IMG/VR virus record: IMGVR_UViG_3300024341_000001
Direction: 5' to 3' (one strand)
Length of the DNA stretch: 64,000 nt
Source: a virus
Lineage: Duplodnaviria; Heunggongvirae; Uroviricota; Caudoviricetes
A program made the position numbers and the translations under genes. The notes beneath the pieces were generated by a model. The model saw only the letters and a program-made list of their open reading frames with translations. It was not told where the DNA came from and did no database searches. Of the stretch, positions 11,499 to 11,606 are shown piece by piece. How positions within the stretch are numbered: position 1 is the stretch's first letter; every line of letters begins with the position of its first letter.

Positions 11499-11606
11499 AT
11501 CGGCAATGTTGTGAGACTGAGTGCGTCCATTGCGCTTTCTCCCAAATTTTTTCTTGGCGGGAGAAATAGAAGTCGAATCTATGATAACAATCTCGATCCG
11601 GCCGAT
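11499..11606 (-). ncRNA. Circularly permuted tRNA-like RNA (YrlA/Y-RNA-like)
   Basis: Order: terminal stem, stem GAGATTG/CAGTCTC, T-arm ATAGA-TTCGACT-TCTAT, acceptor TTCTCCC-G-CCA looped to GGGAGAA, D-like arm. Confidence 0.7.

What the first reader, a model, noticed from the sequence alone, without database searches (positions are those of the whole stretch)
11499..11606. Second permuted tRNA mimic with an internal CCA (YrlA/Y-RNA architecture)
Seen: terminal stem ATCGGC/GCCGAT, internal loop, 7-bp stem, 5-nt linker, T-arm with TTCGACT loop, acceptor strand TTCTCCC-G-CCA looped to GGGAGAA, then a GCG-CAATGGA-CGC D-like arm. It starts 4 nt after tRNA-Met. Known: bacterial and phage YrlA RNAs have this T-acceptor-D module on a Ro60-binding stem, usually near a Ro60/TROVE gene. 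No TROVE gene is in this window. Inferred: two such RNAs could be decoys for anticodon nucleases or tRNA sensors, or substrates for the phage RNase P and ligase.
Basis: partly seen in the sequence, partly recalled or inferred. Interest (0 to 1): 0.8.

Follow-up and report, generated by a model that had tools for sequence, protein, structure and literature searches.

The report
Phage Y RNA shaped like tRNA
This 108-base stretch is a real small-RNA gene of a known kind: a "Y RNA" with an inside-out tRNA body, the usual partner of the Ro60 protein. Here it sits among the phage's tRNA genes, about 116,000 bases from the phage's own Ro60 gene.

Summary
On the minus strand, 11606-11499 folds as described: closing stem, bulged C, 7-bp stem, UUAUC linker, T-arm, 7-bp acceptor helix closed by a loop that starts G-CCA, and a short D-arm.

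The YrlA/Y-RNA reading is supported.
- The 215-kb phage genome does encode Ro60 (TROVE + vWA), about 116 kb away on the same strand.
- The element's 5' strand (GCCGGA, 8 nt, GUUAUC) carries the same signature as the Ro60-adjacent Y RNAs of this phage, of a relative, and of mycobacteriophage ET08.
- A model built from nine IMG/VR homologues finds it as the best hit in the genome (42 bits). Six of the nine lie beside Ro60 genes.
- Across homologues, 24 of its 30 base pairs show compensatory changes.

Two sister elements lie in the same tRNA array (38372-38503 and 25203-25427). The second is the "permuted tRNA-Phe".

Caveats:
- Rfam's YrlA model does not score the element.
- No positional orthologue was found in three syntenic relatives.
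- No RNA data exist.

The 7-bp acceptor, U at -1 and encoded GCCA predict RNase P cleavage, as shown for Mycobacterium smegmatis YrlA.

It is a new member of a known kind. This scan has noted similar phage RNAs on other DNA before.

The parts
11499..11606 (-). Whole YrlA-type Y RNA gene (element A), 108 nt
   Evidence: Sequence and fold. Best hit in the genome to model R2, which was built from nine other phage elements: 42.1 bits. Covariation across homologues.
11597..11606 (-). 5' strand of the closing stem, ending in GCCGGA with a bulged C. This is the presumed Ro60-binding signature, a variant of GNCGAA.
   Evidence: A weight matrix trained only on ten Ro60-adjacent Y RNAs ranks this site third among non-training sites in 430 kb. 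The GCCGGA variant is also present in Ro60-adjacent homologues.
11499..11512 (-). 3' strand: ACAACATT followed by GCCGAT, which closes the stem
   Evidence: ACAAC..TTGC recurs in homologues L170 and L202. The closing helix is 91.7% paired, and 6 of its 8 pairs covary.
11583..11594 (-). 5' strand of the 7-bp inner stem (GAGATTG), then UUAUC. UUAU is the YrlA 'YUAY' motif.
   Evidence: GTTATC is invariant in nine homologues.
11513..11519 (-). 3' strand of the inner stem (CAGTCTC)
   Evidence: This helix is 93% paired, and 5 of its 7 pairs covary.
11566..11582 (-). T-arm: ATAGA-TTCGACT-TCTAT
   Evidence: All 5 pairs covary across homologues.
11537..11565 (-). Acceptor-like 7-bp helix (TTCTCCC/GGGAGAA) closed by the 15-nt loop G-CCA-AGAAAAAAUUU. 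Predicted RNase P site 5' of G11543. Predicted CCA 3' end at 11555.
   Evidence: The helix is 95% paired, and 6 of its 7 pairs covary. The same G-CCA start occurs in L008 and L170. Precedent in M. smegmatis YrlA.
11523..11535 (-). Short D-like arm, GCG-CAAUGGA-CGC, with GG in the loop
   Evidence: 2 of its 3 pairs covary.
11610..11684 (-). Atypical tRNA(CAU) gene directly upstream. Its 3' processing would create the 5' end of the Y RNA.
   Evidence: Conserved in L009, L010 and L011.
38372..38503 (-). Sister element B: a YrlA-type RNA with a V hairpin, a T-arm and a GAAA-capped acceptor-like stem, between tRNA-Asn and tRNA-Tyr
   Evidence: An orthologue in L127 shows compensatory changes in four helices.
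25203..25427 (-).
   Evidence: The orthologue L008 11389-11528 lacks the insertion. That orthologue is the top Rfam YrlA match, aligns at 74% column identity with ET08 YrlA, and is hit by the model of A at E about 1e-5.

Best explanation
The element is the gene for a YrlA-type Y RNA, the small RNA partner of the phage's own Ro60 protein.

Inferred steps:
- It is made on the minus strand as part of a tmRNA, tRNA(CAU), Y RNA transcript.
- Its 5' end is released by 3' processing of the tRNA that ends 3 nt upstream.
- The paired 5' and 3' ends, with the GCCGGA strand and the bulged C, form the handle that Ro60 grips.

Shown structurally: the rest folds as a tRNA body without an anticodon arm. It has a T-arm stacked on a 7-bp acceptor helix, plus a small D-arm.

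Inferred from precedent: this body is the platform for tRNA-recognising enzymes and for an effector such as host PNPase. The acceptor helix has 7 bp, a U at -1 and an encoded G-CCA. RNase P therefore probably cuts 5' of G11543, and the 11-nt tail is trimmed back to CCA. That would leave a two-piece Y RNA (about 52 nt and 45 nt) held together by base pairing, as reported for M. smegmatis YrlA.

My odds: structured RNA gene of this family 0.9. Binds the phage Ro60 0.65. Cut by RNase P in vivo 0.5.
For: 1. Ro60 is encoded in the genome (L001 7769-9559; TROVE 5e-38, Ro60 vWA 1.8e-54). It lies on the same strand as the element.

2. Eight sites on that strand share G-N-C-G-N-N, then 7-9 nt, then GTTATC on a closing stem. 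Five lie just upstream of Ro60. Three lie in the tRNA array, including this one.

3. A weight matrix trained only on ten Ro60-adjacent Y RNAs (this phage and relative L003) was scanned over 430 kb. Among non-training sites it scores element C at 22.3, this element at 18.3 and B at 17.3. The only other site above 14.8 lies inside an ORF.

4. ET08 YrlA and YrlB carry the same GCCGA...GGTTA(C/T)C signature. It corresponds to GNCGAAN0-1G and YUAY in Chen 2014.

5. An IMG/VR pattern scan returned 114 loci. Fourteen of them also have a T-stem with an adjacent acceptor hairpin. Seven of those 14 carry a Ro60 gene in the fetched locus (E<=1e-91). None of the other 100 does.

6. Model R2, built from nine of those elements without this one, finds it as the best hit in the genome: 42.1 bits, full length. 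R2 also hits ET08 YrlB, ET08 YrlA and Ro60-adjacent Y4.

7. The model of this element alone finds eight homologues at 22-46 bits. On that alignment 92.5% of cells pair, against 63% in shuffles and about 40% when partners are slid. 24 of 30 pairs have changes on both sides.

8. Sisters B and C have orthologues in a related phage, with 11 compensatory double changes and no broken pair.

9. RNase P precedent: M. smegmatis YrlA has a 7-bp acceptor. It is cut by RNase P in vivo and in vitro, and it acquires CCA.

10. None of the 38 ARAGORN-called tRNA genes of this phage encodes CCA. G-CCA begins the acceptor loop here, in L008 and in L170, and each has U at -1.

11. No promoter-like site lies between the tRNA and the element. 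A terminator-like hairpin follows the next small ORF.
Against: - Rfam YrlA (RF02553) gives no hit on the element, even at E<=10 in a 501-nt search. The same model does detect ET08 YrlA (37 bits) and the L008 sister (21 bits).
- The D-arm and T-stem sequences, which are nearly invariant in described YrlA RNAs, have diverged here. The T-stem has A53-U61 in place of G53-C61. Only one nucleotide separates the acceptor from the D-stem, and it is A rather than U8.
- The 5' motif is GCCGGAUCG, not a literal GNCGAAN0-1G.
- The element lies about 116 kb from Ro60. Chen 2014 found nearly all best matches within 4 kb.
- No orthologue lies at the same position in three syntenic relatives (L009, L010, L011). 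The element is therefore lineage-specific.
- The nine homologues were fetched with a pattern taken from this element (about 17 specified bases), so part of the 42-bit score is circular.
- The alignment used for pair counts was fitted to the model's structure.
- There are no expression, processing or binding data.
Confidence: 0.78

Rival explanations
1. It is a Ro60-independent tRNA mimic. The inside-out tRNA body with a CCA acts by itself as a decoy or sponge for host enzymes or defence nucleases that recognise the acceptor/T-arm half of tRNAs or the CCA end. It protects the phage's large tRNA set.
For: - It lies in the tRNA array, far from Ro60.
- The closest homologue, L170, also lies in a tRNA array, on a 30-kb contig with no TROVE gene.
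- The encoded G-CCA recurs in three elements, while the phage's tRNA genes lack it.
Against: - The 5' strand carries the same signature as Y RNAs encoded next to Ro60, in this genome and in six other phage contigs.
- The L170 contig is only 31% complete, so Ro60 may lie off the contig.
- No anticodon loop is present, so the RNA cannot be a decoy for anticodon nucleases.
Confidence: 0.12
2. It is a true circularly permuted tRNA gene, as in Cyanidioschyzon merolae. The transcript's ends would be joined and the acceptor loop removed, giving a decoding tRNA.
For: - The 3' half (T-arm, acceptor 3' strand, CCA) lies upstream of the 5' half (acceptor 5' strand, D-arm).
- RNase P determinants are present.
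Against: - No anticodon loop can be rebuilt. The helix in the anticodon-arm position has 7 bp and continues through an internal loop into a 6-bp terminal stem.
- The D-arm is minimal, and U8 is missing.
- In sister C, the apparent anticodon stem ACTGT/ACAGT is not conserved in its orthologue.
- The flanking strands carry Y-RNA motifs instead.
Confidence: 0.03
3. It is a processing or termination signal only. A tRNA-like hairpin cluster punctuates the tmRNA/tRNA transcript ahead of the downstream 56-codon ORF and has no function of its own.
For: - The element lies 3 nt after a tRNA and 19 nt before an ORF start.
- The closing stem is followed by CTATTTTT.
- Syntenic relatives do without it.
Against: - A signal would not need five covarying helices, nor a conserved Ro60-type 5' strand shared with Ro60-adjacent RNAs of distant phages.
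- The terminator scan places a terminator after the ORF, not here.
Confidence: 0.04
4. It is chance, or decayed tRNA debris with no function.
For: - The fold z-score is only -2.07.
- The T-arm plus acceptor-hairpin sub-pattern alone appears in a third of simulated genomes.
- No positional orthologue was found.
Against: - Full-length matches of 22-46 bits to eight elements in unrelated contigs, with 24 of 30 pairs covarying.
- The sequence is identical in the lake metagenome runs laid (dated 2019 and 2025). This shows only that the same strain is present.
Confidence: 0.01

Closest known systems
Mycobacterium smegmatis YrlA (Chen et al. 2014, PMC4201824)
   Same: - Y RNA whose body is a T-arm, an acceptor-like stem-loop and a D-arm, set inside a stem formed by the 5' and 3' ends.
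- The acceptor has 7 bp.
- It is cut by RNase P at the tRNA-like 5' site. The upstream half ends in CCA, and both halves stay with Rsr.
   Different: - In M. smegmatis part of the CCA is added after cleavage. Here G-CCA is fully encoded and is followed by an 11-nt tail.
- That gene lies just upstream of rsr. This one lies about 116 kb from the Ro60 gene.
- Cleavage and binding are experimental results there and predictions here.
Mycobacteriophage ET08 (Bxz1-type) YrlA and YrlB; Rfam RF02553
   Same: - Phage-encoded.
- Same 5' signature, GCCGA...GGUUA(C/U)C, and same T, acceptor-like, D order.
- Model R2 hits both ET08 RNAs.
- Sister element C (L008) aligns with ET08 YrlA at 74% column identity.
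   Different: - ET08 YrlA has a 6-bp acceptor-like stem, a spacer of about 20 nt between GGUUACC and the T-arm, and the canonical D-arm AGCUCAGUGGUAGAGC.
- This element has no such spacer and has a diverged 3-bp D-arm.
- RF02553 does not score this element.
- The ET08 RNAs lie immediately upstream of the Ro60 gene.
Thermus phage phiLo Ro60 with Yrl1 and Yrl2 (PMC12135203)
   Same: Phage Ro60 with phage-encoded Y-like RNAs that carry a CGAA-type motif on a stem formed by the 5' and 3' ends. Those RNAs bind phage Ro60 and host PNPase in vitro.
   Different: - Both Yrl RNAs lie upstream of the Ro60 gene.
- In the passages I read they are described as stem-bulge-stem RNAs. No tRNA-like body is mentioned.
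Bas63 gp130 (Ro60-like) beside a tRNA gene stretch (bioRxiv 10.1101/2024.10.10.617714)
   Same: The authors propose that some 'tRNA genes' next to a phage Ro60-like gene are really Y RNAs, and that the protein counters a host defence system, ppl.
   Different: - That is a suggestion with no RNA identified.
- gp130 is only structurally Ro60-like, whereas this phage has a canonical TROVE + vWA Ro60.
Circularly permuted tRNA genes of Cyanidioschyzon merolae (from my own knowledge, not checked in a paper here)
   Same: The 3' half of a tRNA is encoded upstream of the 5' half, and a short linker joins the acceptor ends.
   Different: Those genes rebuild a full anticodon arm and yield decoding tRNAs through a circular intermediate. 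This element has no anticodon loop, and its flanks carry Y-RNA motifs.

Membership tests
YrlA (Chen et al. 2014; Rfam RF02553) | GNCGAAN0-1G motif near the 5' end | tested here: inconclusive
   The element has GCCGGAUCG: G instead of A at position 5, and two nucleotides instead of 0-1 before the next G. The same GNCGGA variant occurs in Ro60-adjacent Y RNAs of this genome (Y2) and of L003, and in five IMG/VR homologues, four of which lie beside Ro60 genes.
YrlA (Chen et al. 2014; Rfam RF02553) | YUAY at the start of the V region, upstream of the T-arm | tested here: met
   UUAU lies within GUUAUC, directly before the T-arm. GTTATC is invariant in nine homologues.
YrlA (Chen et al. 2014; Rfam RF02553) | T-arm, then an acceptor-like stem-loop, then a D-arm, enclosed by the paired 5' and 3' ends | tested here: met
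   All five helices covary across nine sequences. The order is the same as in the RF02553 consensus.
YrlA (Chen et al. 2014; Rfam RF02553) | Nearly invariant D-arm and T-arm sequences (AGCUCA..GGUAGAGC; G53-C61) | tested here: not met
   The D-arm is GCG-CAAUGGA-CGC, and the T-stem ATAGA/TCTAT has A53-U61. Sister C and its L008 orthologue do keep the canonical D-arm.
YrlA (Chen et al. 2014; Rfam RF02553) | Scores with the curated covariance model (gathering score 69 bits) | tested here: not met
   No RF02553 hit at E<=10. As a control, ET08 YrlA itself reaches only 37.4 bits. L008 sister C reaches 20.9 bits.
YrlA (Chen et al. 2014; Rfam RF02553) | Encoded within about 4 kb of the Ro60 gene, on the same strand | tested here: not met
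   Same strand, but about 116 kb away: genome 137865-137972 against 21768-23558.
YrlA (Chen et al. 2014; Rfam RF02553) | Bound by Ro60/Rsr; carries tRNA-type modifications | not testable with these tools
   No RNA or binding data exist. The complex predictor takes proteins only.
Phage Y RNAs of the form GCCGRA-GUUAUC-T-arm-acceptor-D-arm, beside phage Ro60 genes (group defined here) | Full-length match to a model built from other members | tested here: met
   R2 was built without this element. It gives 42.1 bits, E about 1e-6, the best hit in the genome. Caveat: the members were fetched with a pattern derived from this element.
Phage Y RNAs of the form GCCGRA-GUUAUC-T-arm-acceptor-D-arm, beside phage Ro60 genes (group defined here) | A Ro60 gene in the same genome | tested here: met
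   Seven of 14 structured pattern hits have Ro60 in the fetched locus, against none of the other 100.
Circularly permuted tRNA gene | Joining the ends rebuilds a 5-bp anticodon stem with a 7-nt loop and an anticodon | tested here: not met
   A 7-bp helix continues through an internal loop into a 6-bp terminal stem. There is no loop and no anticodon.
Two-piece (permuted) tmRNA | G3.U70 and A73 alanine identity, plus a tag reading frame | tested here: not met
   The element has G3-C70 and G73, and at 108 nt it has no coding part. The phage's tmRNA is a separate gene upstream.

The most novel reading that the evidence does not exclude
A distinct subclass of phage Y RNA exists, made up of this element, the L008 sister and L170. 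Its members are housed inside tRNA operons rather than beside Ro60, and they carry an encoded G-CCA with U at -1. They would be matured by the tRNA machinery into a two-piece RNA with a free, tRNA-like CCA end. That end could be charged, could be attacked by defence enzymes that target tRNA 3' ends, or could bring Ro60 and an exonuclease to damaged tRNAs. This would tie phage Ro60 function to protection of the phage's own tRNA pool.
Probability: 0.15. Interest if true: 0.6.

Novelty: new member of a known kind. Interest (0 to 1): 0.4.

Why it matters
**Annotation.** The result corrects the reading of three 'odd tRNAs' in a tRNA-rich lake phage. They are Y RNAs, not permuted or broken tRNA genes. 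Together with the five at the Ro60 locus, the phage has eight candidate Y RNAs for one Ro60.

**Gene order.** The tRNA-bodied (YrlA-type) partners can be separated from the Ro60 gene by more than 100 kb and can stay with the tRNA operons. Searches limited to a few kb around Ro60, and the current Rfam model, would miss them.

**Testable question.** The encoded G-CCA, 7-bp acceptor and U at -1 make an in vitro test straightforward: are some phage Y RNAs deliberately cut by RNase P into two-piece RNAs that end in CCA? So far this has been shown only for M. smegmatis.

None of this changes the known picture of Ro60/Y RNA biology. It extends that picture.

Tried and rejected
- **Rfam on the element and its sisters.** E<=10 on 11300-11800 gave no YrlA or Y_RNA hit. 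The same search on sister C gave only noise. On sister B it gave only a 31-bit tRNA match. The Ro60 locus (L001) gave no Y-RNA family at E<=1.
- **GenBank phages.** blastn of the region found no match. tblastn with the neighbouring ORF homologue P0003 found none.
- **Search for a positional orthologue.**
  - Scans of IMG/VR and GTDB contigs with the downstream 116-aa ORF or with P0003 found nothing.
  - The protein database gave five relatives. The two closest (57-59% identity) had no DNA available. From their gene spacing I infer there is no room for the element, but this was not shown.
  - Three syntenic contigs with DNA (L009, L010, L011) lack the element after the tRNA(CAU).
  - A further 51 metagenome loci held no element matching my descriptor.
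  - The contig of the closest related phage (L008) ends before the position.
- **IMG/VR pattern that requires GCCAAG in the loop.** It found only the L008 sister. The remaining hits did not fit the descriptor; the best-scoring looked like ordinary tRNA ends.
- **Expression.** No RNA holder is listed among public runs.
- **Natural variation.** Four lake-water runs were laid on the region. They gave only short, near-identical contigs, with no difference that met the reporting threshold.
- **MAFFT alignments.** Alignments of mixed A, B, C and ET08 sets misplaced the acceptor and D regions. I therefore did not model those helices in R2. I used a single-sequence model of A for the pair counts instead.
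- **Origin from a phage tRNA.** No phage tRNA resembles this element's halves. Sister C's 5' half resembles tRNA-Phe, and sister B resembles tRNA-Ile(UAU).
- **Readings rejected.** Two-piece tmRNA and anticodon-nuclease decoy were rejected on anatomy.

Full report
**What is there.** All 37 tRNA genes that ARAGORN finds in the window are on the minus strand, so the element must be read on that strand. The window is the reverse complement of bases 85471-149470 of a complete 215,016-bp, 37% GC phage record. Lake-water metagenomes hold the same sequence.

On the minus strand, 11606-11499 reads as follows:
- ATCGGC, an unpaired C, GGA, TC
- GAGATTG, TTATC
- ATAGA-TTCGACT-TCTAT
- TTCTCCC, G, CCA, AGAAAAAATTT, GGGAGAA
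- A, GCG-CAATGGA-CGC, ACT
- CAGTCTC, ACAACATT, GCCGAT

The energy z-score is only -2.07. A T-arm directly followed by a perfect 7-bp hairpin turns up in about a third of simulated genomes. Thermodynamics and this sub-pattern therefore do not prove anything by themselves.

**The Ro60 gene exists.** I fetched that region and confirmed it: a 596-aa ORF with TROVE (5e-38) and the Ro60 vWA domain (1.8e-54). It lies at genome 21768-23558. The element lies at genome 137865-137972, on the same strand and about 116 kb away.

**Shared Y-RNA signature.** The non-coding stretch upstream of Ro60 holds five stem-closed RNAs. Their 5' strands read G-N-C-G-N-N, then 7-9 nt, then GTTATC.
- The same signature begins this element: GCCGGA-TCGAGATT-GTTATC.
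- It also begins two other elements in the tRNA array. B lies at 38372-38503.
- A two-block weight matrix trained only on ten Ro60-adjacent RNAs (five here, five in relative L003) was scanned over both strands of the genome. After the training sites it ranks C at 22.3, a site inside an ORF at 20.2, this element at 18.3 and B at 17.3. Everything else scores 14.8 or less.
- Chen et al. 2014 define YrlA by GNCGAAN0-1G near the 5' end, YUAY at the start of the V region, a T-arm, an acceptor-like stem-loop and a D-arm. GCCGGA and UUAU(C) are these two motifs, the first in a variant form.
- Mycobacteriophage ET08, used in that paper, shows GCCGAGAG...GGTTACC in YrlA and GCCGAAGG...GGTTATC in YrlB.

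**Homologues beside Ro60 genes.** I scanned IMG/VR with GCCGRA, then 6-12 nt, GTTATC, then 4-8 nt, TTCGA. It returned 114 loci, about the number expected by chance.
- Fourteen also have a paired T-stem followed directly by a 6-7-bp acceptor hairpin.
- Seven of those 14 carry a Ro60 gene in the fetched locus (tblastn E from 1e-91 to 1e-150).
- None of the other 100 does.

Nine such elements fold like this one. A covariance model built from them without this element (closing stem, inner stem and T-arm modelled) finds it as the best hit in the window and in the whole genome: 42.1 bits, full length, at 11609-11497. The next hits are ET08 YrlB (22.9 bits), Ro60-adjacent Y4 of this phage (22.3) and ET08 YrlA (19.8).

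The nine were fetched with a pattern taken from this element. The pattern columns, about 17 bases, therefore contribute to the score by construction. The independent parts of the argument are the link to Ro60 and the agreement outside the pattern.

A model of this element alone finds eight homologues at 22-46 bits. On that alignment:
- 92.5% of cells form standard pairs, against 63% in shuffles and 37-44% when partners are slid.
- 24 of 30 pairs change on both sides.
- The acceptor helix is 95% paired, and 6 of its 7 pairs covary.

The alignment is fitted to the structure, which favours it. The gap to the slid controls is nevertheless large.

**Sister elements.** A related phage, present as fragments from one metagenome, shares Ro60 at 71% identity and a neighbouring gene at 66%. 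It keeps the tRNA order and has orthologues of C and B.
- The C orthologue (L008 11389-11528) lacks the roughly 100-nt insertion that C has in its acceptor loop. It reads TCTCCGG-G-CCA-AGTATAATTTT-CCGGAGA. That loop has the same length as this element's, and the same G-CCA-AG...TTT frame.
- The C orthologue is the top Rfam YrlA match in its region (20.9 bits, E 0.041). It aligns with ET08 YrlA at 74% column identity, including GAGAGGTCG and TAGCTCAGTGGTAGAGCGCT. The model of this element hits it at E about 1e-5.
- The B orthologue (L127 1497-1620) keeps the GAAA-capped stem but with a different stem sequence.
- Over eight helices of B and C, I count 11 compensatory double changes, no single change and no broken pair.

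C is therefore a YrlA, not a permuted tRNA-Phe. Its apparent anticodon stem is not conserved. Its tRNA-Phe-like D-arm is the canonical YrlA D-arm.

**What does not fit.**
- RF02553 gives nothing on this element at E<=10. The model works on ET08 as a positive control.
- The D-arm and T-stem have diverged, and U8 is missing.
- Three syntenic contigs have the same hairpin-tRNA(CAU) block followed by other sequence, with no element. The element is a lineage-specific addition, most likely a paralogue of C.
- No RNA data exist.

**Mechanism.**
- The element begins 3 nt (CAA) after the discriminator of an atypical tRNA(CAU).
- B begins 3 nt after tRNA-Asn. Ro60-adjacent Y2 and Y4 begin 3-4 nt after tRNA-Ala and a tRNA-like stub.
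- No promoter-like site intervenes here. I infer co-transcription, with release by the tRNA 3'-end machinery, as reported for Deinococcus Yrn1 and Yrn2 with tRNA-Asp.
- The closing stem with GCCGGA and the bulged C is the presumed Ro60 handle.
- The acceptor helix has 7 bp and stacks on a 5-bp T-stem. U63 sits at -1, and G-CCA follows the 3' strand.
- Chen et al. state that the 7-bp acceptor is the feature that makes M. smegmatis YrlA an RNase P substrate. That U at -1 and RCCA favour bacterial RNase P is from my own knowledge.
- I therefore predict a cut 5' of G11543 and trimming to A11555.
- An alternative role for the CCA, also from general knowledge, is to block RNase Z. None of the 38 ARAGORN-called tRNA genes here encodes CCA, which suggests processing by RNase Z and a CCA-adding enzyme.
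- Downstream function is inferred from other systems. Phage phiLo Ro60 binds its Yrl RNAs and host PNPase. A Ro60-like protein of phage Bas63 counters the ppl defence system, and its authors suggest that neighbouring 'tRNAs' are Y RNAs.

**Comparison and novelty.** In other phages the usual layout is tRNA array, then YrlA, then Ro60. Here the array and Ro60 are at least 88 kb apart. The three T-arm-bearing Y RNAs stay with the tRNAs, and my T-arm/acceptor scan matched none of the five elements at the Ro60 locus.

The closest homologue, L170, scores 46 bits and its acceptor loop GCCACTT also begins G-CCA. It too sits in a tRNA array, on a 30-kb contig with no TROVE gene. That contig is only 31% complete.

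This is a new member of a known kind. Two modest twists are the remote location and the encoded CCA. Earlier notes of this scan describe many YrlA-like RNAs in phage tRNA arrays on other genomes.

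Noticed in passing
window 38372-38503 (-): Element B is a second YrlA-type RNA, squeezed between tRNA-Asn and tRNA-Tyr. Rfam reports part of it (38423-38495) as a 31-bit tRNA, above the tRNA gathering score, so automatic annotation would miscall it. An orthologue in L127 1497-1620 shows compensatory changes.
   Followed up: partly
window 25203-25427 (-); L008 11389-11528: Element C, the 'permuted tRNA-Phe', is a YrlA with a roughly 100-nt insertion in its acceptor loop. 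The insertion is closed by a stem of about 11 bp. The related phage lacks the insertion and has a 15-nt loop that starts G-CCA. What the insertion is remains unknown.
   Followed up: partly
window 11754-12827 (-): The tmRNA gene is interrupted. Homology to the tmRNA of L011 runs 12827-12434 and resumes at 11761. The intervening ~670 nt carries a LAGLIDADG ORF (11851-12273) on the opposite strand. ARAGORN finds no tmRNA here.
   Followed up: partly
genome-wide, 38 tRNA genes: No tRNA gene called by ARAGORN encodes CCA. Every one has C immediately after the discriminator, followed by A or T in 34 of 38 and by G in four (mostly CAA, CTA or CAT). This looks like a conserved 3'-processing signal.
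   Followed up: no
window 10865-11215 (-) and 10243-10317 (-); loci L011-L060: In about two dozen metagenomic phage contigs, homologues of the 116-aa ORF are followed, mostly within 0.1-1.2 kb, by a tRNA with a CUA (amber) anticodon. This is a conserved gene-tRNA linkage of unknown meaning.
   Followed up: no
window 11610-11684 (-); L009 735-830; L010 2113-2208; L011 506-595: A tRNA-like gene with anticodon CAU and an aberrant or enlarged D region or variable arm is conserved downstream of the tmRNA in several phages (L009 starts too close to its contig end to show one). ARAGORN misses it and Rfam scores it only 18.7 bits. In L009 its D region contains GTTATC.
   Followed up: no
L001 6360-7760 (genome 20360-21760); window 11606 and 38503: Y RNAs of this phage repeatedly start 3-4 nt after a tRNA or tRNA-like 3' end: tRNA-Ala to Y2, stub to Y4, tRNA-Asn to B, tRNA(CAU) to A. 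This suggests tRNA-punctuated processing.
   Followed up: partly
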